Assembly (NCBI RefSeq): GCF_022539665.2
Contig: NC_081333.1
Span: 13,020,001 to 13,084,000 of the forward strand
Length of the DNA: 64,000 bases
Direction of reading: 5' to 3'
Origin: Daphnia carinata
Taxonomy: Eukaryota
Each line of letters opens with the position of its first letter. The first letter of the stretch is position 1. Both the position numbers and the translations under genes were made by a program. A model generated the notes under the pieces. That model was not told where the DNA came from. It made no database searches and saw nothing but the letters and a program-made list of their open reading frames with translations. This document shows positions 2,598 to 41,109 of this stretch, piece by piece.

Positions 2598-3757
2598 ACG
2601 TGCACTAAAATTGACGAAACAATGAGTCGTAACTCGAAGCAAACGTCAAGTTTGTTTGCTTCAGCTAAAAACACCAACTCTCCCCGTGAGATGGAGAAAG
2701 TGAGATAAATCGCTTTCTGATATTTAAGATTTAGTAATATTGGTCATTATGGCCAATAAGCCAGAAAAATGCGAGAATTGAGTAAGCATTAAAGATCGAT
2801 GATTTTGAATGAGCTAACACTGCTATACCTGAATGTCATCACTAATAAATAGTATTCAATTCGACTGCGGCCGAAAAGAATAACTGAATGACGTTTGCAA
2901 GAGAAGTTTTTTTTATTAGCGACTTCACCGCGGTGCCCCGCCTTGAATGACATCTTTAATAAACTTGCCGCGCTAGTTATTCTCGATCTTCAACAGCTGT
3001 GTCTAAGGTAATCAGTTTTATTTGGACCGCATAGAAAGAGCGGGCAGACTGATGTTCATTTGTGCCAAGCCGATGGTACAATTTGTACGCGGCTTTTAGT
3101 ACGCATATTTTTAACGGGTTCAGCAAACATTCGTAATTTTAAATTGTTTGGTTGTTTTACCTTCTAACTAACCCCGCTAACAGCGCCAATAAATATAATT
3201 TAATAAATATAATTGTCGTCATAGAAATAACGTAGCCTACTATATATTCATAATATATTTAGATAAAAAGAAAAGAAGGGGGAAAGGCTTCAGAAAAGAT
3301 AATGAGAAATAATGCGATAAGGTATACGTATCGAAAGCGAACAGTGCATCAGGGCGCGATTAGTAAAGCTCTATGATAAAACATTTTATACGCAGCAACC
3401 ATTGAAAGAAACGATTGGAAAGGCACTATGAGCAAATTATTAATTCGATGCAACTCATTTGACAAGCTCTCGTCAACGAGAAAAAAAGTCTCGTTAAAAT
3501 AATGTGATGTGTAATTTTAAGGAGCAAATGAAAAAAACGTTATTGACATTTCACACGGATCAACAGGTATAGACAACGCGATAACAAATTATTATCTGCA
3601 TTGTACTCGTAAGCTATATTTTGTGCTTTACAGGTAAACTGATAAATTCAAAACGATTTCGGATTGCAAGTGAAGGTTCTTCAGTGCAAACGCTATTTCC
3701 CAATAGAAGCTCGTACAAGTTCTTGTCTCGCTAGCCTCGAGTGCCTAAAAGCCTGAA

Positions 3758-6411
3758 ATGTCATCGACTACTGCCGTAAATGTAGATGGCATCCAATTCA
3801 ATCGCGACGACCTTTTGGGAAGTGGTGGCTTCGGTTCAGTGTATCGAGGTAAATATAAAAATCAAAGTATAGCAGTAAAAAGAATTCTGAAGATAAATGG
3901 CAAAGATCAAGTAGCTGACAACGAGCTAAATAATCTGAAGCAGTTAGACCATCCCAATATAGTTAAACTACTTCACTCGGCAAGTGATGTCGACTTCAAG
4001 TAAGATTATTTACGTGTTTAACTTTGAATTAAGCTGAGAATTTCCATACGATTTCTGCGATTCAGTTATTTGGCTTTGGAATTGTGCGACGCATCATTGG
4101 ATCAGGTGTTCCTAAATGAGGACGATTCTCGGAGATATAAAGGACCTGCATTACCAAATAATTTCGAGGTTTTCTCCCAATTAGCCTCCGGTCTCGATTA
4201 CATTCATTCAAAGAATGTAATCCATCGGGACATTAAACCGGGCAATATTCTCATTTCTGTGAAACATACTGACCAAGGAGAAGAGATAACGATCAAGTGG
4301 GCTGATTTTGGATTGTCACGAGAAGTGAGTGAACGCGGAACATTCACAATGAGTGGAGTCAAAGGGACTCAAATTTGGTTCTCTCCCGAAGAGATGGAAA
4401 TTATAGGCGGAAACCTACGCATCGAAGAAACGAGAGGCTCCATCCAAAGCGACGTATACGCAGAAGGCCTCGTCTTCGGTTATATTCTTTTGAAAGGAAA
4501 ACATATCTATGGCGAAAATGATATAGAAAGTGGAAAAAACATCATGAAAAACAAACCAGTCAATATGAATAGTAAGTTAGCTCTTGAGGCAGATCATATA
4601 ACATAAGCATATTAATTAAATGTTTAAAATTTAAAATATAATAGAAATTCATCACAGGCATTTAGCCCGTAACTTAATAGAACAAATGCTGATCAAGACA
4701 CCTTACGAAAGAATTACATCCAAACAAGTTGTTGATCAACTTCAATCCATAAAAATCAAAGTAAAGAAATTACACAAGTTTAACAACATCTTCGTCAATG
4801 AAATTCGGGTTCTAACAAAAGTTTTCCATTTAGCTTACGGAAGGAGAAAAAAATCTGCATCGGTTGTGTGCAGATCAACGTCCAACGCCAAATTTAAGCA
4901 TATTAGAACAATGGCTATTCGAATATGCAAGAGATTTAAGGAATGATATCAAATCTTTAATGCAACTCGGTATCGACGTAAACGCAAAGAACGAAGATGG
5001 ATGGAATGCGCTTCATCTTTTGTGTCGATTCAATTCAAGCCAAAACTTAATCGATGCGATTAAACTCTTAGTCGAACTCGGCATCGACCAAAACGCAAAA
5101 ACCAACCAGGGATCCAGCGCCCTTCATTTTTTGTGTCGATACAGTTCAAGCCCACACTTAATCGATGCGATTGAACTCTTGATCCAACTCGGCATCGACA
5201 TAAACGCAAAGGACAACAATGGATTGAATGCGCTTCATCTGTTATGTCGATTCAGTTCAAGCCCACACTTAATCGATGCGATTAAACTCTTGATCGAACT
5301 CGGCATCGACAAAAACGCAAAAACCAAAGATGGATCCAATGCACTTCATCGTCTGTGTTCTAACAATTCAAGCCCACATTTAATCGATGCGATTGAACTC
5401 TTGATCCAACTCGGCATCGACCTAAACGCAAAGGACAACGAAGGGTCGAATGCGCTTCATCTTTTGTGTTTTATCAGTTCAAGCCCACACTTAATCGATG
5501 CGATTAAACTCTTGATCGAACTCGGCATCGACAAAAACGCAAAAACCAAAAATGGATCCAATGCACTTCATCTTCTGTGTCCTTACAATTCAAGCCCACA
5601 TTTAATCGATGCGATTGAACTCTTGATCCAACTCGGCATCGACCTAAACGCAAAGGACAACAATGGATTGAATGCGCTTCATCTTTTGTGTTTTATCAAT
5701 TCAAGCCCACACTTAATCGATGCGATTAAAGTCTTGATCGAACTCGGCATCGACCAAAACGCAAAAACCAATGCTGGAATGAATGCGCTTCATTTTTTGT
5801 GTCTTAAAAATTCAAGCCCCCACTTAATCGATGCCATTGAACTCTTGATCCAACTCGGCATCGACCTAAACGCAAAGGACAACAATGGATTGAATGCGCT
5901 TCATGCTTTGTGTTCTCACAATTCAAGCCCACACTTAATCGATGCGATTAAACTCTTGATCCAACTCGGCATCGACCTAAACGCAAAGGACAACAATGGA
6001 TTGAATGCGCTTCATGCTTTGTGTTCTCACAATTCAAGCCCACACTTAATCGATGCGATTAAACTCTTGATCCAACTCGGCATCGACCTAAACGCAAAGG
6101 ACAACAAAGGGTCGAATGCGCTTCATCTTTTCTGTTATTTCAGTTCAAGCCCACACTTAATCGATGCGATTAAACTCTTGGTCGAACTCGGCATCGACAA
6201 GGAGACAAAAACCAATGCTGGATTGAATGCGCTTCATGTTTTGTGTCGATTCAATTCAAGCCCACACTTAATCGATGCGATTAAACTCTTGATTGAACTC
6301 GGCATCGACAAAAACGCAAAGACTTACTTTAGATGGAATGCACTCGACTTGTGTCGGCGTAATAAAAATCTTGCAAATTGCAACGTGGACGAAATCTTTG
6401 AAACCGTATGA
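3758..6411 (+). CDS. IRE1-like Ser/Thr kinase fused to 12 ankyrin repeats of 37 aa plus a C-terminal cap (kinase-ANK copy 1)
   Basis: Exons 3758-3999, 4066-4571, 4645-4760 and 4834-6411 join in frame. Kinase motifs are intact: GSGGFGSV, AVK, HRDIKPGN, DFG, SPE. The segments ALELCDASL and GYILLKGKHIYG resemble IRE1-family kinases. Confidence 0.88.
5005..6336 (+). repeat. Coding tandem repeat, 12 x 111 bp ankyrin units
   Basis: First NALH codon at 5005 and cap NALD at 6337; the 1332-bp difference equals 12 x 111. Confidence 0.95.
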
Positions 6412-9372
6412 ATTTTAAAAAATGTTAAGGCTGTTCAGAAGAAGAACATACTAAAATAAATTCAAACAAAATTCCCCAGCATGTTGCAAGAAATGGGATT
6501 CGCGGAAAAATACATCCAACTACATAAATTGTTCAATCGCAAAGAGTATTTATTTCTAATTGAAATGCGACGCATTTATGTTAAATAAATTAAAATTCGA
6601 AAAAAATAAGGTAGGCCTACTGGTCAATGGGCTACCTCAGTACGTACCACGCATCACATTAGCTAGAACCTGGTTAAAACGTGCTTTCTAACACAAATGA
6701 AATGGAAGTGTGCGCGAAAACGTAACGAAAACAAATTGATCCCTTTCTTTTAGTAATCACGTCCTTGATAAGGAATCAACTAGTTCTTCCGGTCCAAGAA
6801 AACATATTAGGCGCGCAAAATTACCGAGGAGGGCAGACTTTACAGGGAGGATAAGCGTCAAACTTCAACATCAAACATAATTCTAATTCAAATTTGTCAA
6901 AGTAAAATTAGGTGTTTCAAAGGAAACCGACTCAACTTTGTTTTAAATCTAATTACATGATACAGAGTACAACGAAAGGGGAAAGCGCTCCACATTCAGT
7001 GTCAAACCGATCGAGCGGAAGCTTGAGCTTTGTGATCGCCATGTTCATAGTGAATAAGTGTGAAATGAACTTAAAAAAGCTCATATCATATTTTTAACAA
7101 ATTGAGCAAGACTAAAATTAATGACTGTTGCGCGTTGGCATCAACTTAAGGTGAAAGTGTAAATACATAAAATCTGAATTCCATAACGAATCGTTTCACT
7201 CGCCCACCTCATTGAAAACCACGGAATATGCACGTTACCATTTGAGTATCCTAATTTCATTTCTCTTGAAATATAATTCAAAGCAAAGTGCTGCAAACGT
7301 CAAGTGAGTATTAACTGCTAGATGCAGTTGGTTATAGAGTGGTGAAAAGGACACTATGGATGATAGCTCTTGGCTTCGTCACGATTGAATAAACCTTCAC
7401 TTAAAATATTTGTTTGCAAAATTCCGAGGAAAACGCACACCAATGAAAAAAGGTAATTCAATCCTCCATACAATCTAATGGGCGCGTCCAGCTCTAAAGC
7501 TTTATAAAAAATAAAACCCGAAAATGAAAACTAACCTGGAAATGCAACACGTAGTCTTCATCGAAAGACAGCAATCTGCTGGACATGACACACACTTTTA
7601 GACTCTCCGCTTTAGGATTGACCATTGGCCGGTTTCAAAACCACGTTTGCCAGTTTCATCACCACGACGCGCTTCATTCGCAACAAACTGAGCAAAAAAG
7701 AAACAAATAAAAAAATCATCATTTACGAAAAAAGTACGGCAATGTAAACATTTAGCTCAATACTATAGACTAAGAAATGATTGCAGGTGATTCATTATTT
7801 CTAAGACATTCTCCATTGCACCAAACACATGTTGCAAGCAATATTGATCCAAAATGTCCAAGTTTCTTATGACGGCCATGAATCGAAAAGTATTGAAATT
7901 GACCATCGTGCAAGCATAGTCAAATAATCCAAACTCTGCCTTAGATACAACTGTATTTACGACAGAAATGTAAAGTTTTGACTACGTTTCAGTAGACTAG
8001 TATTGTCTAAACAAATTTACGTCACTGATTGCATGACAAATATTCTAACCTGCTTTTATGTCCTGCAAAGAAAAGGTGGCAACGCTCTCACATACTAACG
8101 AAGAAGCAAAAGGAAAAGGTGCACGTTCATGGGACTTAACTTACCACTGCACATTGTGGCACTCCACCAGACCAGAGACTAAAGCAGAAGGCACTGATCC
8201 CTACTACGGGCTCGGTAGACATGCTCAGTCTTGCCGGTGGTGGCGCGCGGAACTTATACCCGCCGTTTGTTGCGGGGGAGGGTGGGAGAGAAACATTACA
8301 AGGACACTGTAAGGTCTCATTAGCAAAAATTTGGAAAATTCAAAAAGACAAAGATGATAAATAATAGACGAAAGGAAAACATGGGTTACAGAGAACTCTG
8401 CTCGATTTGAAAAGGAAACAGGCAATTTATTGTTAAAGATAACAAAACTTACCAGGTTCATTGAACCATCGTTGAGCTATTGTTCCATAGGCGGGAGAAC
8501 TCGTGTCTCATTGCCTTTTGTCCCTGAGCAAGCCAGCGTGGTTTTACTTCCCGTACTTCTAGCGCCAATGGTGAGAAGGCGGGTGTGTTATAAACATGTG
8601 CAGTGAAACGCAAATACTATGTCATTCCATTTTCTTTATCCGATATCATAAATTTTTCTTGTCTAGTAGTACACTTATTTTAAACAAAACATTTCTAAAA
8701 TAAAATTTTTTTAACATTTTGAATAATGCATTCCAAAACGAAAATAGTCTTCCAATGATTGTATCGATTCTTACACGATCAATCAGCGAAATCGGTACAC
8801 GTGCTCGACGAAAAGTAGGAGGGATGGCTTTCTCTCAGTGTGTGCAACAAGATGTCTGTGACAATACGTTAAACTCCCGCCATCCCCCACCCCAAAAAGG
8901 AAAATGAAATTAAATTAAATATCAAGTTGTAATTGCTTGCATTTCGAATTTCCTTCTGCACATGCTGCCTCGGTGTCCCAGTGATGATCTGAATTCAGTT
9001 GAGTCCTAGTATTCGGACAGATAAGAACAGGATGTCCGTGTAAAGTAGGTCAATCACGGACATCGTAGCTTGGTTCGAGAGGTGACATTTTTGCTTGTAG
9101 TTGGTGTTCTTTTTCATTCACGTTCAGTTCAGTGCCAACTCCTCTGGACACCAGACATCGAAGACGCTTACAATTCACTGTGTTTACTTACCTAAGTATA
9201 AAGTGTCAAGCGAACTTTTAGTTTCATCGCCCATTTTCAACTGACAAAAAGGTTCATTTTTCTTGTAAGACATTTGATGTTGGTCGGTGTACAATTTTTC
9301 CATTAAATATCACCAAACTATACATGTTCATGTTACACAATGCAGAAAGTACAGCATAACCAAGCCTCTAAA

Positions 9373-11077
9373 ATGAGTGGAGAAATCAAGACCCTGGGTG
9401 ATAAACAACTTTTTTGGAAAACCCTTTTTGAAACCAAAAAATTGGCTGCCCAGCTGGCCTCCATCGTGACGAATCACGTTAATGGCGTCACCTATGATGA
9501 CTTGCCCCAGTATGGAAACGTACACGTCGTGGCTCAATCTGGCTCAAATTTAGGTGACAATTTCCAACGCGACACGTTCATTGTGTCTGCACGGCTGTTG
9601 CAAGGCCAACACTTGAGTACTTTCATCAAGGTATTGATTTACCTATGCACTTAACATTTCGAAATTTTACGCTGTTTTGTTTTCAACAGGTACTGCCGTC
9701 GAATTCCTTTCTGCGCCAAGCTGTGGACGGGTCTCGTGTCCATCAACGCGAGATCAACATGTACCAACATTTTTTCGCTCTCCTGCGAGAGATGCATGCC
9801 GACCAACCGATTCCCTTGGACATCCCAGATTGTTACTACACCCATCTGGAGGAAGTTGTCAAGGGCGAGACGGACGGATCGAATACTTGCATCGTACTTG
9901 AAGACTTGAAAACAGAGAATTATCGCATGGTGGATATAACAGGAGGACTTGATTATCGTCATTGCCACATGGCTCTGACATCGCTAGCTCATTATCACGC
10001 TCAAACGCTAAATGCATTGAGAACTTGGAAAGACTCGTCCACAGGAGAGTTATCCAAGGTGCCACTTGCTGCAAAATTTATTTTTGATGAAATGTCCATG
10101 TTTGACATGGGTATCACCCATGCCCTTCAGAATTTTGCCACCACTGTCGTCGATTTTGCCAAACCAGTTAACCGACCTGATGTAAGTATAGCTATTTGTT
10201 TAGATATTTTTTGTATTTGACTGTGCTTAGCCATTGAATTTTACAGCTCCATTGTTGTTCAATCATTAACAGTTAGTCGAGTGGTTGACGGATCTTCAGC
10301 AACGGCTACCGGAGATCATGTTAGTCGACAATGTAGAGACCAGTGGTCCACTGGCTTGCATCCTTCACGGAGATTTTTGGAACAACAACATGCTGTTCAA
10401 ATACGCAGAGCAGACGGATCGCCCCGAAGATAGGACAACGAACGAAACTGCATCCGTAAACATTCCTGTTTCGTTAAAAATGCTCGATTTTCAGCAATCG
10501 AGGATAGGCCATCCACTCAGCGATGTGCTTTACTTCATGTACACGAGTACAATGCCAGAGTTGAGGGAGCAACACATGCTCGTCTTGCTTCGTCATTATT
10601 TCGATACGTTGACGACTGATTTGCTATTTCTCGGCGTTTCACTCGACAACTACACGTGGGAAAATTTTATGGAAGACTACAAGAAAAGATCCTTGATGTG
10701 GATGTTTGCTGGTGTCTTGATGATTACCATGACCCAAAACAAGCAAGCCGCTTCCACTTTACAAGACATGGATGAGGCAGAACAAAAGAAAGGTCCTACA
10801 TCAGGTACAGCAAATTGTTCCTTAAAATATGATTACTATTGTAATTATGATAAAAATTAGTATTGGTGGCAGTTTGATTATTTAATTTCTATACCTTTCA
10901 TATTTTGGCAAACGTGTAGATACGGACGTGGAACCAATGAAGGATGAAAGTGGATTGAACCTCGAAATGGAGGAAAAGATGAAGAACATGATGGCGACTC
11001 AGGCATTGCGTGCTAGTTCGGTTTTGTCGGACCGAATCCTTAAACTGATGGAAGTGAAGGCTTTAAATGATTCATAA
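9373..11077 (+). CDS. EcKL protein, copy 2; 4 exons
   Basis: Exons 9373-9630, 9690-10181, 10273-10804 and 10920-11077 join in frame. Same motifs as copy 1, and near-identical to it over most of its length. Confidence 0.87.
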
Positions 11078-11471
11078 AATGCAGCAGCAGTAATCAATGC
11101 ATCCTGTTTTAAATAGGAGGTTGATTAAATTCGTGAGATTTATTGCCCAGTTGCTAGAACGCTTCCATACTTGTTTATGTGGAACTGCACCGGTCAACGA
11201 GTTCAAAGTGTAACACCAGATCATCAAGAACATGAGGATATCGATTCCCTCTCGCCCACACAAACACATCTACACGCAAAACACATTAATCACCTTGTGG
11301 TGCAATAGACAGCGAGCAATCTTACCAAGAGCATAACAACTGGCTGATATGCCCAAGCTTATTTTGAAACAAAACACACAAATGTGTGGGAAACAAGTCG
11401 AAACCAAAAAGCTTTTCTATTATCTGGCTGCACTTGACTTGAGGTAAACAGCTTATCAATAAAAACTGCTG

Positions 11472-12547
11472 ATCTTTTGTGTTATAACAATTCCAACCCC
11501 CACTTAATGGATGCGATTAAACTCTTGATCGAACTGGACATCGACAAGGATGCAAAAACCAACGGTGGATCCAATGCACTTCATCTTTTGTGTTATAACA
11601 ATTCAAGCCAACACTTAATTGATGCGATTAAACTCTTGATCGAACTGGGCATCGACAAGGATGCAAAAACCAATACTGGATTGAATGCGCTTCATCTTTT
11701 GTGTCGAAACAATTCAAGCCTACACTTAATCGATGCGATTAAACTCTTGATCGAACTCGGCATCGACAAGGACGCTAAGGACAATGATGGATGGAATGCG
11801 CTTCATATTTTGTGTTATTACAATTCCAACCCACACTTAAACGATGCGATTAAACTCTTGATCGAACTGGGCATCGACAAGGATGCAAAAACCAACGCTG
11901 GATCCAATGCACTTCATCTTTTGTGTTATAACAATTCCAACCCACACTTAATAGATGAGATTAAACTCTTGATCGAACTGGGCATCGACAAGGATGCAAA
12001 AACCAACGATGGATCCAATGCAATTCATCTTTTGTGTCGATACAATTCAAGCCAACACTTAAACGATGCGATTAAATTCTTGATCGAACTGGGCATCGAC
12101 AAGTATGCAAAAACCAACGATGGATCCAATGCAATTCATCTTTTGTGTCGATACAATTCAAGCCAACACTTAAACGATACGATTAAACTCTTGATCGAAC
12201 TGGGCATCGACAAGGATGCAAAAACCAACGATGGATCCAATGCACTTCATCTTTTGTGTTATAACAATTCAAGCCAACACTTAAACGATGCGATTAAACT
12301 CTTGATCGAACTCGGCATCGACAAGGACGCAAAAACCAACGCTGGATCCAATGCGCTTCATATTTTGTGTTCTAACAATTCAAGCCCACACTTAATTGAT
12401 GCAATTAAACTCTTGATCGAACTCGGCATCGACAAGGAGGCAAAGAATAAGAATGGATCAAATGCACTCGATTTGAGCCGGCTCAATACAAATTTCACAA
12501 ACTGCAACCTAGACGAAATCTTTAAATCGTATGAGGTGCACTTATAA
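11472..12547 (+). pseudogene. 5'-truncated kinase-ANK paralog: ankyrin exon remnant only (1 partial + 8 full repeats + cap)
   Basis: Intergenic sequence equivalent to 2597 is fused directly into the middle of a repeat ('aaaaactgctga|tcttttgtgt'). The upstream region, kinase exons and normal splice acceptor are missing. Confidence 0.8.
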
Positions 12548-12899
12548 CGATATTAAAGCTTTTCGCAAGATGGACAGGCAAACAGAACGCTACGTTGCAA
12601 CAAACGAGACTCTCGGCAAAGTACGGCTTATTATAGTTATTATAGACAGTGCAACGCACCACATCAGCTGGAGTATGAAGAAAACGAACCGTGTAACACA
12701 AGTGAATAAAAGAGTTTGAGGAAACGTAACGAAAAGTTCCGTAACTTGTCTGCGGAAAAACTATCTCTGTTTGCTGGGCCAACTGCAAAAAGAACGACCA
12801 CACGTCCATTAATACAACTCTGCTATCGTTGGAAAACTCTACTTTAGGAGAAACATGAGGCATCAGGTGAGTAATTGTATGCTATCTATATGGTCACAA

Positions 12900-15050
12900 T
12901 GTTAATCTGTATAGATGCGGAATGAACTTTCAAAAAAGCTCAAAGCCTATTTTTGACAAGCTTTAAAAAGACTAAAATTAATAATTGTTGCGCGCTTTGT
13001 CATGAATTTAAGAAGAAAGTGTAAATAGATAAAATTTGAATGCCATTATGAATCGTTTCACTCGCTCACCTCATTGAAAACCATGCAATCTGCAAATTAC
13101 CATTTGAATATCCTAGTTTCATTTCTCTTGAAATGTCAACCAAAGCAAATTGTTCGAGCATCAAAGTGAGTATTAACTGGTAGAAGCGTTCATTATGAAG
13201 AGTGGTGAAAAGGACGCTACGGATGATAGATCTATGCTTTGTCACGACTGAATAAGCCTTCACTTAAAATATTTGTTTGTAAAATTCCGAGGAAAACCCA
13301 TACCAATCAAAAAAGTTAATTCGATCCTCCACACAATCTAACAGGCGCGCACAGCTCTTTAGTTTTGTAAAATGTAAAACCTGAATACAAAAACTAACCT
13401 GGAAATGCACGACGTGTGATCTTCATCGAAGTAGGTAATCAGCTGGACACTACACACACATTTGATATTTCGACTCTCTCCGATTTACACCCGGAGTTTT
13501 GATGATTGCAGCGGGGTCACCAATGAGCTGACTTGTGGTCCATCGTAAATTGACGTGTAAACATTCCACCACTGATGGACAATCAGCTTGTGGTATGACG
13601 ATGTTTCCAGGGTTTAAACCGTTGGACGGTTTCAAAACCAAGTTTGCCAGTTACATCACCAGGACTTGCTTCATTCAGCAACAAACTAAGCAAAAAGAGA
13701 AACAAATAAAAAAAATCATCATTTAGTGAAAGAGAACGGCACTGTAACATTTAGCTCATTATTAGAGGATAACAAATACTTTGCGGGTGACTCTTTATTT
13801 CTAAAACATTCCCCATTGCAACAGCCCCATGTTGCAAGCAATATTGATCCAAAATGTCCAAGTTTCTTACGACGGCCATGAATCGTAAAATATTGAAATC
13901 GACCAGCGTGCAAGCCTAGTCGCATGATCCAGGCCTTAGATGCGACTGTATTTACCACATAAATGTAACATTTTGCTTTCGTGTCAATAGACTAGTGTTT
14001 TCTAAACAAGTTTACGTCATTGATTGTATGACAAATGTTCTTACCTGCTTTTATTTCCTGCAAAGAAAAGGTGGCAACGCTCTCACAAACTGGCGAAGAA
14101 GCAAAAGGAAAAGGTGCACGTTCATGGGACACAAATTCACTACTGCACATTGTGACACTCCACCAGACCAGAGACTAAAGCGAAAAGCACCAATGCCTAC
14201 TTTAGGCCCGGTAGACATGCTCCGTCTTTCCGGTGGTGGCGCGCGGAACGTATACCCGCCGTTTGTGGCGGGGGAGGGTGGGAGAGAAACTTTACAAGGA
14301 CACTGTAAGATCTCATTAGTGAGAATTTGGAAAATTCAAAAAGACAAAGATGATAAATAATAGACGAAAGGAATACATGGACTACAAAGAACTTCCCCCC
14401 GAGTTGAAAAGAAAACAGGCAATTTAATGTTAAAGATAATAAAACTTACCAGGTTCATTGAACTATTAGTGAGTTATTGTTCCATTGGCGGGAGAACCAC
14501 TCTCCTGTTCTATTACCTTTTGTTCCCGATCAAGCCAACATGCTCTTATTCTCCTTACCTCTAGCGCCAATGGTGAGAAGGCGGGTGTGTTATAAACATG
14601 GCGGAGTGAAACGCAAATATGTCTTTCCATTTTATTTATGCGACATTATAAATTTTCCTATTTAGTAGTACACATACTTAAACGAATTATTTCTAAAAAA
14701 CAACGACTTTTTTTTAAACATTTAGTTATAATGCATTCCAAAACGAAAATGCTCTTCCAACGGTTGTATCGATTCTTAAACGATCAATCAGCGAAATTAG
14801 TACACGTGCCCGACGAAAAGTAGGAGGAATGGTTTTCTCTGAGTGTGGGCAACGAGATTTCTGGGACAATTCGTTAAACTCTCTTCATCCCCCTTCCAAA
14901 AAAAAATTTAATTAAATTAAATATCACGTTGTGATTGTTTACATTTCGAATGTCCTTCTGCACCTGCTGCATCGGTGTGCCAGTCATAATCTGCTATCAG
15001 TTGAGTCCTACCATTTGAACAGATGAGAACTGATGGTTTATGTGATGTAG
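12900..15050. repeat. Diverged copy of the spacer downstream of the kinase-ANK genes (compare ~7050-9050 and ~25900-27750)
   Basis: Colinear shared blocks such as 'cacttaaaatatttgtttg', 'gcaagcaatattgatccaaaatgtccaagtttctta' and 'caccagaccagagactaaag'. Boundaries are approximate. Confidence 0.85.
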
Positions 15051-15071
15051 ATCAAAAAGAGTAATTAACGG

Positions 15072-15185
15072 AGTAGTGGACCACTAGCGGGCATCTTGCA
15101 CGGCGATTACTGGATTAATAATATGCTGTTCAAATACGAAGACGATGGCAAACCCAATTCTGAATCAATTGCCTTTAAAATGATT
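15072..15185 (+). pseudogene. Isolated EcKL exon-3 fragment
   Basis: Translates SSGPLAGILHGDYWINNMLFKYEDDGKPNSESIAFKMI, homologous to the catalytic segment of neighbouring EcKL genes, with no flanking exons. Confidence 0.7.
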
Positions 15186-15588
15186 TACCACGTACCATTC
15201 GAAAAAATAAAAAAAAAAATTGGTTTGTATGTTGAACTTGCATGGAATGCATTGATTTGCAAGTCATTCTGTTCTACTTTCGATCGTGCTCGAGCATTCG
15301 GAGAGATAAGAAACCAACGAACAAGTTGGGATACACCAACAACGTTGTTCGATAGATAATGTCCGTGTATGTGGTCAGCATTTCTGTTTCACTGACGTAC
15401 TAGGATCATTCCGGACAACACATCGAGCAGCGCAGAATCAATAACATCTTTAACTTCCCAATTGATAATAGTTCCAGCTTTACATTTTCTTGTAAGCCAT
15501 TTCATGTTCAGTACAGTTTTTCTCTAATATGATTCGCTCAATTAAGAGCAGTTACATTAGGTGACAATTATTTCTAATTAGGTTAAAA

Positions 15589-17280
15589 ATGAATGGAAAA
15601 AGCAAGTGTCTGAGTGATCGACAGCATTTTTGGAAAGTACTTTTTGAAACCAAAAAATTGGCTGCCCAGCTAGCCTCCTTGGCGACGGATCACATTGATG
15701 GCGTCACCTACGATGACATACCCCAGTACGGAAAAGTGCACGTCGTGGCTCAATCTGGTTCAAATTTAGGTGACAATTTCCAGAGCGATACGTTCATTGT
15801 AACTGCCCGGCTATTGCAAGGCCAACACGAAGAGCCAATCGACGTCTTGAGTACTTTCATTAAGGTATTTATTTCCCTATTCACTTCTAACGAGTTTGAA
15901 ACTGTTCAACGTTCAACAGGTGCTGCCATCTAATTTCTTGCTTCGTAAATCGGCTTACGAGTCTCGCGTTCATCACCGTGAGATCAACATGTACCACCAC
16001 ATCTTCGCTCTTCTACGAGAACTGCATGCCGATCAGCCGATTCCATTAGATGTTCCAGACTGTTACTACACCCATCTGGAACAGGTTGTCAAGGGCGAGA
16101 CGGACGGATCGGGTACTTGCATTTTACTGGAGGATCTCAAATCAGAGAATTATCGTATGGCGGATAAAATACGAGGTGCCGATTATCGCCACTGTCACAT
16201 GGCATTGACGTCATTGGCTCATTATCACGCCTTGACTCTGAACGCTGTGAGAAAATGGAAAGATCCGTCAACAGGAGGATTGTCCAATATGCCACCTGTG
16301 GCGAAATTCATTTTGGAAGAGAAATCCATGTATGACGTAGGAATCATTAAAATCCTTCAAGACTTTTCCATCTCGATCGTCAATTTCGCCAAAGAAATAG
16401 ACAGACCTGGTGTGAGTATGCTGTGAAGTATTCTTGCAATACCTAATGGGCACGAACGCTTTCAATAGCTTTAGGCTTTCCGTTCAAATTCATTGATTAA
16501 CAATCATTACCAGGTAGTTGAATGGTTGTCAGACATACAGCAGCGAATGCCAGAAATCGTTTTAGTCGACAATCTGGAGAGCAGCGGTCCATTGGCTTGC
16601 ATTCTTCATGGGGATTTCTGGAACAACAATATGCTGTTCAAATACGCAGAGCAGTCGGATCGCCCTGAAGATGGAAATAGCGAGAATGCACCAGCAGACA
16701 TTCCTGTTTCACTGAGAATGCTCGATTTTCAACTATCGAGGATCGGCCACCCACTCAGCGACGTCCTTTACTTCATGTACACGAGTACAATGCCGGAGTT
16801 GAGAGAACGTTACATGCTCGTATTACTTCGTTATTATTTTGATACGTTGACGACCGATCTGAGGTTGCTCGGCATTTCGTTGGACAACTACAGCTGGCAA
16901 CACTTTTTGGAGGATTACAAGAAAAGGTCGTTAATGTGGATGTTGATAGGCGTCATGATCGTTTCCATGACCCAAAATAAGAAGGTTGTGACCAGTTTAC
17001 AAGATATGGATGCAGACGAGCAACTAAAAGAGCCCAAACCAGGTGAAAGTTGATTTCCGTTTGGGTATCAGTGCTTTTTAATCGTCTTCATTGTGTTGTT
17101 GGCCTTTTAGTGAACGAAGAGATGGATGTGGAGCCAGTTAAGGGCGAAAGTGGAATGAGCCTCGAAATGGAGGAAACTTACAAGAACATGATGGCGACGT
17201 ATGTACTGAGTGATAGTCCGGCTCTGTCCGATCGAATTCTTAAACTGATCCTGGAGGCTATGGCCTTAAATTGCTCTTAA
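15589..17280 (+). CDS. EcKL protein, copy 3; 4 exons
   Basis: Exons 15589-15864, 15920-16411, 16514-17042 and 17111-17280 join in frame. Contains HGDFWNNNMLF and LDFQ. Confidence 0.88.
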
Positions 17281-17938
17281 ACTGTAGTACCTTAAATTGT
17301 TCATCTTTTCCCGTATCTTCAAGGTTTTCCACCATTTTGCATATTAAAGGTTTGAATAAGATGTGCTAATTGTAGACACACTTCGCAACATAGTAAAAGA
17401 CAAAACGAATACAAGATGGCGTTCTATGTATTTTGTTGCTGCATCAAATAGGTTGACGTAATCACGTATGTTTGATTAGATTCAATAAATGTGATTTACT
17501 GCCTGTTGGTTGGCTGATAACTGTACTTGTTGCACTACTGGCACTGCAGCACAATCAGCGAGTTTGCGTAACACCAGGTCGTTAAGGCGAGATGATAACG
17601 ATTCTCTTACACGCATACCAGATACTACAAAGCAAGGAGTAATACAGAGCGATCGGGTAATCAGACTTTTGCCAATGCGGTGTTGCCATGTGGCATTTAT
17701 TAGAATAAAAATGATTGGAAAATGGCGAAATTTCATGCAAAATATCATTATTTCACAAGGCAATTTATCGATTCGAAATCGATTTTTTAAAATTATTATT
17801 ATACATCTTCTTTCTCTTCAGTGTTCTCTTTAGAGCCAAGGAAGGTATCATTTCCTTCAGAATTTTTTGTTCATCTTTTCTTGGCTCACTGATTTGAAGA
17901 AATAACCCAAATTACATTTATTTGAAATACAATTTTGA

Positions 17939-19303
17939 ATCACCTTGTTGTGCAATCGGCAGGGAGTAACCTTACCAAGCGCATAAAAACTAGCTGATAT
18001 GCCCAAGCTTATTTTGAAACAAAACAAACAAATGTGCGGAAAGCAAGTCAAAACCAAAAAGATATTCTATTATCTGGCTGCATTTGAGTTGAGGTAAACA
18101 GCTTATCAATAAAAACTGCTGAACGTGCACTAAAATTGACGAAACAATGCGTCGTAACTCAAAGCAGCGTCAAATTTGTTTGCTTCAGCTAAAAACAACT
18201 CTCCCTGTGAGATGAAGAAAGTGAGATAAATCGCTTTCTGATATTTAAAATTTAGTAATATTGGTCATTATGGCCAATAAGCTGGAAAATGCGAGAATAG
18301 AGTAAGCATTAAAGGTCGATGATTTTGAATGAGCTAACACTGCTATACCTGAATGTCATCACTAATAAATTGTATTCAATTCGAATGCGGCCGAAAAGAA
18401 GAATTGAATGACGTTTGCAAGAGAATTTTTTTTTATTAGCGACTTCACCGGTGCCCCGCCTTGAATGACATCTTTAATAAACTTGCCGCGCTAGTTGTTC
18501 TCGATCTTCAACAGCTGTGTCTAAGGTAATCAGTTTTATTTGTACCGCATAGAAAGAGAGGGCAGACTGATGTTCACTTGTGCCAAGCCGATGGTACAAT
18601 TTGTACGCGGCTTTTAGTACGCATATTTTTAACGGGTTCAGCTAAACATTCGTAATTTTAAATTGTTTGGTTGTTTTACCTTCTAACTGACCCCGCTAAC
18701 AGCGCCAATAAATATAATTTAATAAATATAATTGTCGTCATAGAAATGACGTACTATATATTCATAATATATTTAGATGAAAAGAAAAGAAGGGGGCAAG
18801 GCTTCAGAAAGATAATGAGAAATAATGCGATAAGGCATACGTGTCGAAAGCGAACAGTGCAGGGCGCGATTAGTAAATCTCTATGATAAAACATTTTATA
18901 CGCAGCAACCATTGAAAGAAACTATTGGAAAGGCACTATGAGCAAATTATTAATTCGATGCAACTCATTTGACAAGCTCTCGTCAACGAGAAAAAAAGTC
19001 TCGTTAAAATAATGTGATGTGTAATTTTAAGGAGCAAATGAAAAAAACGTTATTGACATTTCACACGGATCAACAGGTATAGACAACGCGATAACAAATT
19101 ATTATCTGCATTGTACTCGTAAGCTATATTTTGTGCTTTACAGGTAAACTGATAAATTCAAAACGATTTCGGATTGCAAGTGAAGGTTCTTCAGTGCAAA
19201 CGGTATTTCCCAATAGAAGCTCGTACAAGTTCTTGTCTCGCTAGCCTCGAGTGCCTAAAAGCCTGAAATGTCATCGACTACTGCCGTAAATGTAGATGGC
19301 ATC
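17939..19303. repeat. Near-identical duplicate of the kinase-ANK upstream region and first 12 codons (~2414-3793)
   Basis: Colinear, with few differences, from 'atcaccttgt' to 'gtagatggcatc'. Confidence 0.9.
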
Positions 19304-22300
19304 GAATTTGATCGCAATGATCTTTTGGGTATTGGTGGCTTCGGTTCAGTGCATCGAGGTAAACATAAAGGTCAAAGTGTAGCAATCAAAAGAATTCTGA
19401 AGCTAAATAACAAAGATCAAGTAGTTAACGACGAGTTAAAAATTCTGCAGCAGTTAGATCATCCCAATATTGTTAAATTTGTGCACTTCGCAAGGGATGA
19501 TAACTTCAAGTAAGATTGTTACGTGATAACTATGAATTAAAAAGAGATGCTCTATATGATTTCTGTTATTCAGTTACATTGCTTTGGAATTGTGCGACGC
19601 ATCATTAGATCGGGTATTCCTAAAAGAGGACGATCGTCGGAAATACAAAGGACCTGCATTACCAAATAATTTCGAAATTTTCTACCAGTTAGCCACTGGT
19701 CTCAAATACATTCATTCACAGAACCTAATCCATCGGGACATTAAACCGGAAAACATTCTCATTTCTGTGAAACATACTGATCAAGGTGAAGAGATAAAGA
19801 TCAAGTGGGCTGATTTTGGATTGTCAAGAGCAGTGAATGACAGAGGAACTTTCACAATGAGTGGAATCAGAGGGACTTTTCTTTGGTTTTCTCCCGAAAT
19901 TATGGAAATTATGGGAAACGGCCTGCGCATTGAAGAAACTAGAGGCTCTATCAAAAGCGACGTATTCGCAGAAGGCCTCGTCTTTGGTTACATTCTCTTA
20001 AAAGGAAAACATATCTACGGCGAAAATGCTTTAGAAATTGCGAACAACATCCTGAAAAACGAATCAGTCAATATGAGTGGTAAGTAACCTCTTGAGACAA
20101 GTTCGTATAACTTAAGCATAATATAAAATGTTTAAAACTTTTTAAATATAGAAATTCACAAAAACCATTTAGCACGTAACTTAATAGAACAAATGCTGAT
20201 CAACACATCTGATACAAGAATTACATCTGAACAAGTTGTTAACCAGCTTGCTGACATAAAAATCAAAGTAATAAAACCTCACAAGTTTAACACCTTCATT
20301 GTTATTGAAATTTGGGTTCTCTAACAATGGTTTCTCATTTAGCTCATCGAAAAAGAAAAACACCTGCAACTGCTGTGTAAACATCACACAACAGTTTTTG
20401 GGAATAAAATCAAAAATTTAATCCAACTCGGTGTCGACTTAAACTCAAAGAATGGCGATGAATGGAATGCGCTTCATTTTTTGTGTCGATACAATTCAAG
20501 CCCACACTTAATGGATGCGATTAAAATCTTGATCGATCTCGGCATTGACAAAAACGCAAAAACCAACCATGGATCGAATGCGCTTCATTATTTGTGTGAA
20601 AACAGTTCAAGCTCACACTTAATCGATGCAATTAAACTCTTGATCAAACTCGGCATCGATAAAAACGCAAAAACCAACGATGGATCGAATGCGCTTCTTC
20701 TTTTGTGTCGAAACAGTTCAAGCCCACACTTCATCGATGCAATTAAACTCTTGATCGAACTCGGCATTGACAAAAACGCAAAAACCAACCATGGATCGAA
20801 TGCGCTTCATTATTTGTGTTGTAACAATTCAAGCCCACACTTAATCGATACAATTAAACTCTTGATCGAACTCGGCATCGACAAAAAAGCAAAGGACAAC
20901 GTTGGATGGAATGCGCTTCATCTGTTATGTCGATTCAATTCAAGCCAACACTTAATCCATGCAATTAAACTCTTGATCGAACTCGGCATCGACAAGGACG
21001 CAAAGTCAAACAAGGGACAGAATGCGCTTCATCTTTTGTGTCGATACAGTTCAAGCCCACACTTCATCGATGCAATTAAACTCTTGATCGAACTCGGCAT
21101 CGACAAAAACGCAAAGGACAACGATGGATGTAATGCGCTTCATCTTTTGTGTCGATACAATTCAAGCCAACACTTAAGCGATGCAATTAAACTCTTGATC
21201 GATCTCGGCATCGACAAAAACGCAAAAACCAACGATGGATCGAATGCGCTTCATTATTTGTGTGAAAACAGTTCAAGCTCACACTTAATCGATGCAATTA
21301 AACTCTTGATCAAACTCGGCATCGACAAAAACGCAAAGGACAACTATGGATCTAATGCGCTTCATTATTTGTGTCGAAACAATTCAAGCCCACACTTAAT
21401 CGATGCAATTAAACTCTTGATTAAACTCGGCAGCGACAAAAACGCAAAAACCAACGATGGATCCAATGCGCTTCATTATTTGTGTTGTAACAATTCAAGC
21501 CCACACTTAATCGATACGATTAAACTCTTGATCGAACTCGGCTTCGACAAAAACGCAAAAAACAACCATGGATCGAATGCGCTTCATCTTTTGTGTCGAA
21601 ACTGTTCAAGCCCACACTTAATCGATGTGATTAAATTTTTGATTGAACTCGGCATTGACAAAAACGCAAAGGACAACCATGGATACAATGCGCTTCATGA
21701 CTTGTGTCGACACAATTCAAGCCCACACTTAATCTATGCGATTAAATTTTTGATTGAACTCGGCATCGACAAAAACGCAAAATCCAACGATGGAATGAAT
21801 GCGCTTCATTATTTGTGTTGGAACAATTCAAGCCCACACTTAATCGATGCGATTAAATTTTTGATTGAACTCGGCATCGACAGAAACGCAAAATCCAACG
21901 ATGGATGTAATGCGCTTCATCTTTTGTGTTGGAACAATTCAAGCTCACACTTAATCGATGCGATTAAAATCTTGATCGAACACGACATAGACAAAAACGC
22001 AAAATCCAACGATGGATGGAATGCGCTTCATCTTTTGTGTCGATACAATTCCAGCCCACACTTAATCGATGCAATTAAACTCTTGATCAAAATCGGCATC
22101 GACAAAAACGCAAAGGACAACGATGGAAGGAATGCGCTTCATCGTTTGTGTTGCAACAAGTCAATCCCACACTTAATCGATGCGATTAAATTTTTGATTG
22201 AACTCGGCATCGACAAAAACGCAAAAGCCAACAATGGATGGAATGCGCTTCATTATTTGTGTTGGAACAATTCAAGCCCACACTTAATCGATGCGATTAA

Positions 22301-24317
22301 ATTTTTGATTGAACTCGGCATCGACAAGGATGCAAAGGACAACGATGGATCGAATGCGCTTCATCTTTTGTGTTGGAACAATTCAAGCTCACACTTAATC
22401 GATGCAATTAAACTCTTGATCAAAATCGGCATCGACAAAAACGCAAAGGACAACGATGGAAGGAATGCGCTTCATTATTTGTGTTGGAACAATTCAAGCC
22501 CACACTTAATCGATGCGATTAAATTTTTGATTGAACTCGGCATCGACAAGGATGCAAAGGACAACGATGGATCGAATGCGCTTCATCTTTTGTGTTGGAA
22601 CAATTCAAGCTCACACTTAATCGATGCAATTAAACTCTTGATCAAAATCGGCATCGACAAAAACGCAAAGGACAACGATGGAAGGAATGCGCTTCATCGT
22701 TTGTGTTGCAACAAGTCAATCCCACACTTAATCGATGCGATTAAATTTTTGATTGAACTCGGCATCGACAAAAACGCAAAAGCCAACAATGGATGGAATG
22801 CGCTTCATTATTTGTGTTGGAACAATTCAAGCCCACACTTAATCGATGCGATTAAATTTTTGATTGAACTCGGCATCGACAAGGATGCAAAGGACAACGA
22901 TGGATCGAATGCGCTTCATCTTTTGTGTTGGAACAATTCAAGCTCACACTTAATCGATGCAATTAAACTCTTGATCAAAATCGGCATCGACAAAAACGCA
23001 AAGGACAACGATGGAAGGAATGCGCTTCATTATTTGTGTTGGAACAATTCAAGCCCACACTTAATCGATGCGATTAAATTTTTGATTGAACTCGGCATCG
23101 ACAAGGATGCAAAGGACAACGATGGATCGAATGCGCTTCCTCTTTTGTGTTGGAACAATTCAAGCTCACACTTAATCGATGCAATTAAACTCTTGATCAA
23201 AATCGGCATCGACAAAAACGCAAAGGACAACGATGGAAGGAATGCGCTTCATCGTTTGTGTTGCAACAAGTCAATCCCACACTTAATCGATGCGATTAAA
23301 TTTTTGATTGAACTCGGCATCGACAAAAACGCAAAAGCCAACAATGGATGGAATGCGCTTCATTATTTGTGTTGGAACAATTCAAGCCCACACTTAATCG
23401 ATGCGATTAAATTTTTGATTGAACTCGGCATCGACAAAAACGCAAAAGCCAACAATGGAAGGAATGCGCTTCATTATTTGTGTTGGAACAATTCAAGCCC
23501 ACACTTAATCGATGCGATTAAATTTTTGATTGAACTCGGCATCGACAAGGATGCAAAGGACAACGATGGATCGAATGCGCTTCATCTTTTGTGTTGGAAC
23601 AATTCAAGCTCACACTTAATCGATGCAATTAAACTCTTGATCAAAATCGGCATCGACAAAAACGCAAAGGACAACGATGGAAGGAATGCGCTTCATCGTT
23701 TGTGATGCAAAAAGAAAATCACACACTTAATCGATGCGATTAAATTTTTGATTGAACTCGGCATCGACAAAAACGCAAAAGCCAACAATGGATGGAATGC
23801 GCTTCATTATTTGTGTTGGAACAATTCAAGCCCACACTTAATCGATGCGATTAAATTTTTGATTGAACTCGGCATCGACAAAAACGCAAAAGCCAACAAT
23901 GGAAGGAATGCGCTTCATTATTTGTGTTGGAACAATTCAAGCCCACACTTAATCGATGCGATTAAATTTTTGATTGAACTCGGCATCGACAAGGATGCAA
24001 AGGACAACGATGGATCGAATGCGCTTCATCTTTTGTGTTGGAACAATTCAAGGCCACACTTAATCGAGGCGATTAAACTCTTGATCGAACTCGGCATCGA
24101 CAGGGACGCAAAGGATTACTTTGGATGGAATGCGCTTCATTATTTGTGTGAATACAATTCAAGCCCACACTTAATCGACGCGATTAAAGTTTTGATTGAA
24201 CTCGGCATCGACAAAAACGCAAAGACCTACTTTACTAGATGGAATGCACTCGGCTTGTGTCGGCGTAATATAAATCTTGCAAATTGCAACGTGAACGAAA
24301 TCTTTAAAACCGTATGA
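19268..24317 (+). CDS. IRE1-like kinase fused to 34 ankyrin repeats of 37 aa plus cap (kinase-ANK copy 3); one in-frame TGA at 23703-23705
   Basis: Exons 19268-19509, 19574-20079, 20152-20267 and 20343-24317. Motifs GIGGFGSV, AIK, HRDIKPEN, DFG and SPE. The ORFs before and after the TGA are in the same frame. Confidence 0.82.
20466..24242 (+). repeat. Coding tandem repeat, 34 x 111 bp ankyrin units with higher-order 555-bp and 444-bp blocks
   Basis: First NALH at 20466 and cap NALG at 24243; the 3777-bp difference equals 34 x 111 + 3. Confidence 0.95.
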
Positions 24318-24653
24318 ATTTTAAAAAATGTTAAGGCTGTTCAGAAGAAGAACATACTAAAATAAATTCAAACAAAATTCCCCAGTATGTTGCAAGAAAT
24401 GGGATTCTCGGAAAAATACATCCAAGGAAAACAAATTGATCTTTCTTTTAGTAATCACGTCCTTGCTAAGGAAACAACTAGTTCTTCCGGTCCAAGAAAA
24501 CATATTAGGCGCGCAAAATTACCGAGGAAGGCAGACTTTACAGGGAGGATAAGCGTCAAACTTCAACATCAAACATAATTCTAATTCAAATTTGTCAAAG
24601 TAAAATTAGGTGTTTCAAAGGAAACCGACTCTACTTTGTTTTTAATTTAATTA

Positions 24654-25800
24654 GGGGAGGTAGGGCGTGGTTGGAACACAAAACTTATTTTTGTTCCGTA
24701 CGTTTACAAAAATCGTCCAAGTAAACTAAAAAATATATAGATTTGTAGCCAATTATCTCAGCTACATAACCGTATTTTTTTTGGGTGGGTTCGGCAAAGA
24801 TTAATATCTGCTATGCGTAAAAAACTGGAGGTACCCCAAGTTGTTTCAATTGCCAATTCTACTCGGCAATTGAAACAGGGCGTCTGGGCAATTGAAACGT
24901 GGGTTTTCCCATAAGAGAGCTCCCGGTTTTATGAAGAAACTAAAATGACGATATCTTAGAATCTGGGATACGTATTTTGATGATTTTTTTACAACAATAT
25001 AGAGAATTTTAATCTTTACTTTTTAAGATATTTTATAACTTTCTATACTAACTAAATATTATTTAATGAATTTTAGTAGTTTTCTGAATTAAGTTCGGAA
25101 AACCGTTAGTAATCAAAAGAACGGTTAATAGTATGGAGATAAAATTTTTATAATCGAATATTGCATGTCCAGCCTTACATCATAATTGTTGTTAATGTCC
25201 TTAATTTAATTTTTTAAATTTAATTTCTTTCGTCAACGTTGTAAATAAAAGCACAAACATTGTGGCAGACGATAAATGCCAGCCACCCAGCAGACGAAAT
25301 AAAACACAAAAATAAACAATAATTGAAAAAAGAGCTCTGCTAATACGCTGCGTAGGGAACACTGTTGCCAGACTATAGTATAGGAGACGCGCATACGGAA
25401 GGGTCGCAATTGGAACAAGGTGTTCCAACTGCTCCGACCATGGGTCTTCAAGGAGTTTTAATGTTTATGGGGGATAAAATTTAGCTAGGAAAAAGTTAAT
25501 GTGATCAATTTATAGCTTAAAGAATGACGAATGATTGGAGACCTTTTTTAATGATTTTCTCCATCGTTTTCGGTATGAAAACGAAAAAATTGTCTGCAAA
25601 AAAACGACAAATGGGCAGTCAAAAAACAATTTTCTGGGATAATTCGAAAACTTTTGGATTCTAAAGCCTCCAATTTTTTCTAAAAATGTAGAACCCTAAT
25701 TTCCGTTAGTTCAAATTTTTTAAACAAAATCTCTTACATACTTTAAGTAGTAGAATTTTTGTTTCAATTGCCGCGTGTTCCAATTGCGCCCTACCTCCTC
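24654..25800. mobile_element. Non-autonomous TIR DNA transposon (MITE-like), 1147 bp, TA target-site duplication
   Basis: 26-bp imperfect TIRs (22/26 match): ggggaggtagggcgtggttggaacac and gtgttccaattgcgccctacctcctc. TA lies on both sides (24652-3 and 25801-2). The paralogous site at ~6950 is empty with a single TA. No transposase ORF. Confidence 0.9.
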
Positions 25801-26097
25801 TACATGATACAGAGTACAACGAAAGGAGAAAGCGCTCCACGGTTAGTGTCAAACCGATCGAGCGGAAGCTTGATCTTTGTGATCGCCATGTTCATAGTGA
25901 ATGGATGTGAAATGAACTTAAAAAAGCTCACATCATATTTTTAACAAATTGAGCAAGACTAAAATTAATTACTGTTGCGCGTTGGCATCAACTTAAGGTG
26001 AAAGTGTAAATACATAAAATCTGAATTCCATAACGAATCGTTTCACTCGCCAACCTCATTGAAAACCACGGAATATGCACGTCACCATTTGAGTATC

Positions 26098-27763: not shown

Positions 27764-27982
27764 AAGGTCCTACATCAGGTACAGAAATTCGCTCCCTAAA
27801 AATTTATTATTATTGCAATTATTATCAATACTGGTATTGATGGGTGTTTGATTATTTAATTTCTATGCATTTCACATTTTGGCAAACGTGTAGATACGGA
27901 CGTGGAACAAATGAAGGGCGAAAGTAGAATGAGCCTCGAAATGGAGGAAAAGATGAAGAACATGATGGCGACTCAAGCATTG
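27764..27982 (+). pseudogene. EcKL remnant: end of exon 3, intron 3 and first part of exon 4
   Basis: 'aaggtcctacatcag|gtacag...tgtag|atacggacgtggaac...atgatggcgactcaagcattg' matches 10791-11008. Exons 1-2 and nearly all of exon 3 are absent. Confidence 0.8.
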
Positions 27983-41079: not shown

Positions 41080-41109
41080 CGTGTGTGTGTGTGTGTGTAT
41101 GTGTGTGTG
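41080..41109. repeat. (GT)n microsatellite
   Basis: A gtgtgt run of about 30 bp with one interruption, upstream of the HECTD1 CDS. Confidence 0.8.

What the first reader, a model, noticed from the sequence alone, without database searches (positions are those of the whole stretch)
3758..24317. Kinase fused to hypervariable, DARPin-like ankyrin arrays: candidate diversifying receptor system
Seen: three paralogous arrays of exact 111-bp repeats (12, 9 or more, and 34 units), each inside one intronless exon. The framework is almost invariant even at the DNA level (aatgcgcttcat, cacttaatcgatgc, ctcggcatcgac). Change concentrates in the residue after NALH, the two residues after LC, and the xxGx turn. 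After LC, copy 1 reads RF,RY,RF,SN,FI,PY,FI,LK,SH,SH,YF,RF, while copy 3 uses RY,EN,RN,CN,RH,WN,EY and others. Known: the beta-turn and first helix form the ankyrin binding face and are the positions randomised in DARPins. Fungal NLRs use similar high-internal-conservation repeats for non-self recognition. Inference: this is an intracellular sensor family in which repeat shuffling changes ligand specificity and an N-terminal kinase transmits the signal, possibly in immunity or allorecognition. I cannot confirm that it is undescribed.
Basis: partly seen in the sequence, partly recalled or inferred. Interest (0 to 1): 0.9.

Follow-up and report, generated by a model that had tools for sequence, protein, structure and literature searches.

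The report
Water-flea kinases with shuffled binding repeats
A water flea carries duplicated genes in which an IRE1-type kinase is joined to a long row of near-identical ankyrin repeats whose predicted binding face changes faster than neutral drift explains, so they likely act as variable intracellular sensors, possibly of parasites.

Summary
The arrays are real: 12, 9 and 34 units of 111 bp. The host is a Daphnia close to D. carinata. Only copy 1 is an intact kinase-ankyrin gene, and spliced contigs match it. Copy 2 has lost its promoter and kinase by deletion. Copy 3 has an in-frame TGA in unit 30, probably a sequence error. Five of 37 codons (unit positions 5, 8, 33, 35, 37) show omega about 6. 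The signal mostly survives simulations with recombination and uneven mutation rate; the six classical DARPin positions as a fixed set are not significant. All five lie on the ankyrin inner helix or hairpin. Units recombine, and kinases and arrays are swapped between paralogs. The family is large in six Daphnia species, lacks IRE1's RNase and membrane anchor, and includes pseudokinase-kinase forms. I found no description of it in 10 paper searches. It evolves like the conserved-repeat receptors of fungal NLRs but is no NLR. A role as immune sensor is inferred only: no ligand, no population data, no infection response shown.

The parts
3758..6411 (+). Copy 1, intact gene, 813 aa: exons 3758-3999, 4066-4571, 4645-4760 (kinase, residues 1-288) and 4834-6411 (N-cap, 12 ankyrin units, C-cap). 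Motifs GSGGFG, VAVK, HRDIKPGN, ADFG, SPE present.
   Evidence: GT-AG introns and open frame; Pfam Pkinase and Ank; contig joints at 3999/4066 and 4760/4834
3567..3633 (+). 5' UTR intron of copy 1 (same sequence ahead of copy 3)
   Evidence: GT..AG joint in run X1
4963..6320 (+). Array 1: 12 units of 111 bp (37 aa), all different at the six variable sites
11472..12547 (+). Copy 2: kinase-less remnant; a deletion joins the EcKinase 3' flank to the middle of an ankyrin unit; 8 whole units and a C-cap; probable pseudogene
   Evidence: tail 83% identical to D. carinata P0013, which keeps its kinase
19268..24317 (+). Copy 3: exons 19268-19509, 19574-20079, 20152-20267, 20343-24317; intact kinase motifs, 34 ankyrin units
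23703..23721 (+). In-frame TGA (23703-23705) in unit 30 of copy 3, one of five differences from its sister units within 17 bp, all to A; probable local sequence error
   Evidence: the other 16 units of the block differ by 0-1 base from a sister unit
22131..24017 (+). Recent higher-order expansion in copy 3 (unit order PQRQR PQRQS PTQR U TQ)
2600..3757 (+). Upstream region of copy 1, 97.5% identical to 18125-19267 ahead of copy 3, although the kinase exons and introns differ by 15-22%
499..2210 (+). Ecdysteroid-kinase-like gene, duplicated together with the kinase-ankyrin gene (further copies near 9370-11084, 15586-17287, 28856-30250); approximate limits

Best explanation
These are members of a large Daphnia gene family in which an IRE1-type kinase is fused to a recombining array of 37-residue ankyrin repeats with a positively selected predicted binding face, and they likely work as variable cytosolic sensors in an arms race with parasites. 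Shown: architecture, spliced contigs, exchange among units and paralogs, omega above 1 at five codons. Predicted: those codons line the concave groove. Inferred: each unit is a binding module; unequal crossing-over and gene conversion change number, order and content of units while keeping the framework stackable; a bound foreign protein clusters the kinases or lifts inhibition by the array, and the kinase then autophosphorylates and signals. Clustering as the trigger is borrowed from IRE1 and RNase L (recalled). Copy 2 is a dead by-product of the same recombination.
For: Selection: a site model robust to recombination gives LRT 18-21, with sites 5, 8, 33, 35, 37 at posterior 0.96 or more and omega about 6. 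Null simulations reach this in 0 of 142 (free recombination) and 0 of 146 (one tree). A test that lets the top five sites have their own mutation rate is reached in 15 of 856 and 6 of 670 null runs with strong rate variation. Model-free: diversity at codon positions 1/2/3 is 0.53/0.47/0.29 at six variable codons and 0.10/0.06/0.15 elsewhere; at sites 8, 9, 35 only 2/126, 0/256, 1/161 same-residue pairs differ silently, against 2467/20320 elsewhere. Position: aligned to a DARPin the sites are ankyrin positions 1, 3, 5, 10, 13; in the AlphaFold model of homolog P0020 (pLDDT 85.5) they fall in helix 1 and the hairpin loop. The same positions vary most in arrays of D. carinata, D. magna and the D. 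pulex group. Shuffling: 247 of 697 site pairs fail the four-gamete test, nearer pairs less often (p 0.012); no unit of four D. carinata paralogs on the syntenic contig recurs in the window (0 of 31); copy 1 joins a P0013-like kinase to a P0020-like cap and tail. Family: 54 of 54 hits are Daphnia, 46 with ankyrin; Atlas cluster of 219; species-level expansions in the tree. No signal peptide or clear membrane helix. Precedent: fungal NLR ankyrins with five selected sites on the same face (PMC4986451).
Against: The six classical DARPin positions as a fixed set give omega 1.7, p 0.50, and a nine-site concave set 2.35, p 0.11, once they get their own mutation rate. The first LRT is reached by 20 of 141 null runs with rate variation. 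Site 37 has many silent changes too (107/193). The model is my own implementation and treats repeats as a population. Fast divergence among repeats by relaxed plus positive selection is reported as general (abstract of PMC5120217). Only one of three copies is cleanly intact. No infection link: no kinase-ankyrin transcript among the rows seen for Caullerya-responsive genes of D. galeata; IRE1-annotated genes not enriched in two GO tables of the D. dentifera fungal study (0 and 3 of 38); none of the Daphnia-Pasteuria papers listed contains 'ankyrin'. IRE1-annotated gene sets rose under caloric restriction in D. magna. Array polymorphism within the species was not testable.
Confidence: 0.5

Rival explanations
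1. Targeted effector rather than sensor: the variable array brings the kinase to a foreign substrate (parasite or viral protein), which it phosphorylates or sequesters directly, with no downstream signal.
For: Explains the same selection pattern; no signalling domain besides the kinase; 39 of 107 family kinase domains have altered catalytic motifs by a crude pattern test, so binding alone may suffice.
Against: No substrate known; pseudokinase-then-kinase order in 16 of 24 multi-kinase proteins resembles regulated receptors.
Confidence: 0.18
2. Neutral concerted evolution: gene conversion homogenises the array, the framework is under purifying selection, exposed groove residues drift, and the family is a set of redundant stress kinases.
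For: Groove positions vary between repeats of any ankyrin protein (general knowledge); fixed-set tests not significant; 20 of 141 null runs with rate variation mimic the first test; broken copies; caloric-restriction response of IRE1-annotated sets.
Against: Outer-helix and linker positions, presumed exposed, have omega 0.7; silent sites inside codons 8, 9, 35 are nearly frozen while the residues change; the rate-robust test gives p about 0.01-0.02.
Confidence: 0.17
3. A non-parasite arms race: the arrays track fast-evolving self proteins (selfish elements, germ-line conflict, mate or clone recognition).
For: Positive selection names no opponent; no infection link found.
Against: No sign of germ-line bias was tested; no cell-fusion allorecognition is known to me in Daphnia (recalled); cytosolic location argues against surface recognition.
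Confidence: 0.1
4. The long array of copy 3 is partly an assembly artefact (over-expanded repeat with consensus errors); this would lower the unit count but leave the family and the selection signal, which use distinct units only.
For: Exact runs of up to 528 bp and the five-base A cluster; no homolog retrieved has more than 13 units by my pattern.
Against: No frameshift across 3.8 kb; the first 15 units are all different; the homolog searches had length limits.
Confidence: 0.2

Closest known systems
Fungal NLRs with high-internal-conservation ANK/TPR/WD repeats (Podospora; PMC4986451)
   Same: Near-identical tandem repeats, concerted evolution, five selected positions on inner helix and hairpin
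   Different: No NACHT/NB-ARC domain; a kinase is fused directly to the array; animal host; function untested
IRE1 / RNase L
   Same: Kinase is closest to IRE1 among solved structures (E 1.6e-18); RNase L also pairs an IRE1-type kinase fold with ankyrins (recalled; ankyrin-kinase-KEN proteins seen)
   Different: No KEN RNase, luminal domain or membrane helix; ankyrins lie C-terminal; the Daphnia kinases form their own clade apart from the KEN-bearing ones (support 0.96)
RIPK4 / ANKK1 / DAPK1
   Same: N-terminal kinase followed by ankyrin repeats (look-alikes)
   Different: Different kinase class by best structure hits; single-copy conserved genes with divergent 33-aa repeats (recalled), not an expanding family with 37-aa homogenised units
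Plant tandem kinase / kinase-fusion immune receptors (search listing and abstract starts only)
   Same: Intracellular kinases fused to recognition domains; pseudokinase-kinase forms occur among Daphnia homologs
   Different: Unrelated kinase class (recalled); window copies have one kinase; recognition part is a shuffled repeat array
DARPins
   Same: Constant framework, variable groove positions; best structural matches of the array
   Different: Natural, 37-aa unit with a four-residue insertion after helix 1; position 1 varies and position 33 does not

Membership tests
Fungal HIC-repeat NLR | Central NACHT or NB-ARC domain | tested here: not met
   Pfam scan of exons finds only Pkinase and ankyrin as credible hits; no room for one in the gene model
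Fungal HIC-repeat NLR | Repeats about 85% internally identical | tested here: met
   83, 88, 85% amino-acid identity to consensus; borderline, and a different metric from the paper's
Fungal HIC-repeat NLR | Positive selection at concave-face positions | tested here: met
   fixed-set test not significant
Fungal HIC-repeat NLR | Repeat-number polymorphism among individuals | not testable with these tools
Fungal HIC-repeat NLR | Non-self recognition triggers a response | not testable with these tools
   needs experiments
IRE1 | IRE1-type kinase domain | tested here: met
   top 16 PDB sequence hits are IRE1; fold hits
IRE1 | C-terminal KEN RNase, luminal domain and membrane helix | tested here: not met
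   no Ribonuc_2-5A hit; N-terminus hydrophilic, best 19-mer 1.55 lies inside a repeat
RNase L | N-terminal ankyrins, pseudokinase, KEN domain | tested here: not met
   order reversed, catalytic motifs intact, no KEN
RIPK4/ANKK1 | Kinase then ankyrin repeats | tested here: met
RIPK4/ANKK1 | RIP-type (TKL) kinase | tested here: not met
   IRE1 outranks TKL kinases by five orders of magnitude in E-value; no tree with RIP kinases was built
Plant tandem kinase proteins | Two kinase domains in one chain | tested here: not met
   one kinase in copies 1 and 3; 24 of 104 homologs have two or more, some perhaps fused gene models

The most novel reading that the evidence does not exclude
Daphnia has an undescribed germ-line-diversified intracellular receptor repertoire: dozens of IRE1-derived kinases carrying natural DARPin libraries, reshuffled within and between genes, that recognise parasite proteins and underlie genotype-specific resistance to intracellular parasites; an animal counterpart of fungal HIC-NLRs and plant kinase-fusion receptors.
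Probability: 0.35. Interest if true: 0.92.

Novelty: new variant of a known kind. Interest (0 to 1): 0.72.

Why it matters
Daphnia is a main model of host-parasite coevolution, yet receptors for parasites inside the cell are poorly known (my recollection). A large, expressed, fast-diversifying kinase family with a defined variable surface gives direct candidates and simple tests (unit swaps, pull-downs, association of array alleles with resistance). It would show a third independent route to repeat-shuffled receptors. It also warns that Daphnia transcriptome results read as 'IRE1/unfolded protein response' may reflect this family, since databases name its members IRE1-like (inference).

Tried and rejected
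No whole genome is held, so no genome-wide count. The run search listed no holder on record as RNA; X1 is recorded as 'DNA?' and I read it as spliced only from its GT..AG joints; X2 laid nothing. No contig of X1 covers 23707-23718 beside the TGA: not proof either way. A spanning-tree count of changes per codon gave synonymous changes raised at DARPin sites too (3.1 against 2.2 nonsynonymous per site); it saturates, so I did not rely on it. Single-sequence fold of copy 1's last exon was poor (pLDDT 60) and was not used. No prediction of a kinase dimer was obtained, so dimerisation is untested. An EcKinase-ankyrin fusion at copy 2 was rejected: the EcKinase frame ends about 400 bp earlier and no acceptor precedes the array. 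Three look-ups in earlier scan findings returned nothing. Ten paper searches found no description of the family; subscription journals are largely missing from the library. Passage searches in PMC3710099, PMC13389597, PMC4244043, PMC12811391, PMC8963301, PMC10375369 and 10.1101/847194 found no mention of it; supplements of PMC11193740 (one scanned file unread) and PMC8963301 had none of the terms; bioRxiv supplements were not seen.

Full report
Host and layout. The single-copy neighbour C7orf25 is 94% identical to the D. carinata protein and 83-84% to D. sinensis and D. lumholtzi; the D. carinata gene lies on the same 13.27-Mb contig as the closest kinase-ankyrin homologs P0013, P0016, P0018, P0020. 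The window is thus from a close relative of that reference, and the comparison is between taxa, not alleles. The first 30 kb is a tandem duplication of an ecdysteroid-kinase-like gene plus a kinase-ankyrin gene.

The three copies. Copy 1 has four coding exons with GT-AG introns and gives 813 aa with all catalytic motifs. Contigs of run X1 skip exactly introns 1 and 3 and a 5' UTR intron, and one matches exon 1 over 152 bases without a difference. The run is recorded as 'DNA?', so expression is inferred from these joints; 218 contigs of graded identity were laid, which points to many paralogs. Copy 2 has no kinase: 8872-11472 repeats 1-2597 at 96% and then jumps into an ankyrin unit. Copy 3 has an intact kinase and 34 units but a TGA in unit 30. 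That unit differs from its sisters at five bases within 17 bp, all to A, while the other 16 units of the block differ by 0-1 base; I judge a sequence error likelier (about 70%) than a real stop. If real, 29 whole units remain.

Variation. For the selection tests I dropped four units (copy 2 junction unit, copy 3 stop unit, the last unit of copies 1 and 3) and collapsed identical ones, 51 to 40; one search used 53 units, 42 distinct. A Dirichlet-multinomial codon model, written by me from recall of genomegaMap and robust to recombination, puts about 15% of sites at omega 6, with positions 5, 8, 33, 35, 37 at posterior 0.96-1.00 (LRT 18.5 and 20.8 under two codon frequencies). Null simulations reached 18 in 0 of 142 and 0 of 146 runs, but in 20 of 141 when mutation rate varied among codons. 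A stricter test, picking the five most variable sites (35, 8, 37, 5, 9) and giving them their own rate, was matched by 15 of 856 and 6 of 670 rate-variable nulls. Against this, fixed sets chosen beforehand were not significant (six DARPin positions omega 1.7, p 0.50; nine concave positions 2.35, p 0.11), though the DARPin set holds 33 of 90 nonsynonymous changes (permutation p 0.002); the remaining 28 positions have omega 0.48. Diversifying selection at a few codons is therefore likely (about 80%), not certain.

Structure. Alignment to DARPin 6mol places unit positions 33, 35, 37, 5, 8, 9 at ankyrin positions 1, 3, 5, 10, 13, 14; the list of classical randomised positions (2, 3, 5, 13, 14, 33) is recalled. 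The AlphaFold model of homolog P0020 shows a kinase, a linking helix and regular helix-helix units, with helix 1 at unit positions 2-9 and the hairpin loop at 25-37; I had no coordinates, so exposure was not measured. Fold matches are DARPins, ankyrins and IRE1. The same positions lead in entropy in 9 D. carinata, 7 D. magna and 3 D. pulex-group arrays; 3 D. sinensis arrays are noisier.

Shuffling. Four-gamete failures are common (34 of 125 near pairs, 213 of 572 far pairs; p 0.012). Copy 3 shows a higher-order expansion. Between genes, copies 1 and 3 differ by 2-4.5% in upstream region, C-cap and 3' flank but by 15-22% in kinase exons and introns. Copy 1's first exons match P0013 (85-93%) while exon 3, cap and tail match P0020 (82-95%), and copy 2's tail matches P0013; the tree pairs the copy 1 kinase with P0013 at 0.996. 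The simplest reading is recombination between adjacent paralogs. None of 31 units of the four D. carinata paralogs recurs unchanged in the window.

Family. All 54 hits to the kinase exon are Daphnia proteins from six species, 46 with ankyrins, under assorted automatic names. The kinases form one clade with species-level expansions, apart from KEN-bearing proteins (FastTree, 106 domains, isoforms partly left out). By a crude pattern 39 of 107 domains have altered catalytic motifs; 24 of 104 proteins have several kinase domains, 16 of them an altered one first and an intact one last (isoforms included, fused gene models possible). Related kinases are fused to an AIG1-type GTPase (P0048) or WD40 repeats (P0129). 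Three unnamed, distant kinase-ankyrin proteins (P0064, P0083, P0088) suggest a wider range that I could not assign.

Mechanism. Shown: architecture, splicing, exchange, selection. Predicted: groove location, cytosolic protein. Inferred: binding of a foreign protein along the groove clusters or de-represses the kinase, which signals. A constant framework lets any unit stack on any other, so recombination yields new binding surfaces without unfolding. [quoted passage not shown] Direct support for immunity is missing, and a caloric-restriction study found IRE1/IRE2-annotated gene sets up-regulated (10.1101/2020.05.24.113381, passages), which may be this family.

Literature seen. PMC4986451: passages and one section. 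PMC5120217: abstract. PMC8683736, PMC3710099, PMC13389597, PMC4244043, 10.1101/2020.05.24.113381: passages. PMC12811391, 10.1101/847194: term search, no hits. PMC8963301, PMC10375369: term search in text and supplements. PMC11193740, PMC6295042: term search in supplements only. Plant tandem kinase papers: listing and abstract starts. No description of the family was found in ten searches.

Verdict. A real, apparently undescribed Daphnia family that evolves like a variable receptor. It works like a fungal HIC-repeat receptor but belongs to none of the named families. New variant of a known kind; interest 0.72.

Noticed in passing
window 24652-25802: 1.15-kb insertion with 28-nt terminal inverted repeats in the 3' flank of copy 3, absent from the matching flank of copy 1: a MITE-like element
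   Followed up: partly
window 57340-59241: AT-rich element with long inverted arms and a 171-bp tandem repeat (58460-59070), probably a non-autonomous transposon
   Followed up: no
window 499-30250: Four ecdysteroid-kinase-like genes and a fragment (27761-27982) interleaved with the kinase-ankyrin genes, 65-95% identical
   Followed up: partly
window 32240-34865 (-): Two tandem LPMO_10-like genes (only the second was scanned)
   Followed up: no
window 36991-54207: Conserved genes: C7orf25 homolog; by recalled resemblance a UBR7-like gene, HECTD1 and diphthine synthase
   Followed up: partly
proteins P0048, P0129, P0019/P0024/P0080: The same kinase family is fused to an AIG1/septin-like GTPase in D. 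galeata and to WD40 repeats in D. magna; some members carry a conserved C-terminal domain without a Pfam match
   Followed up: partly
proteins P0102, P0108, P0148, P0166: Long ankyrin-kinase-KEN (RNase L-like) proteins of 1260-1630 aa; the one looked up has no name or taxon
   Followed up: no
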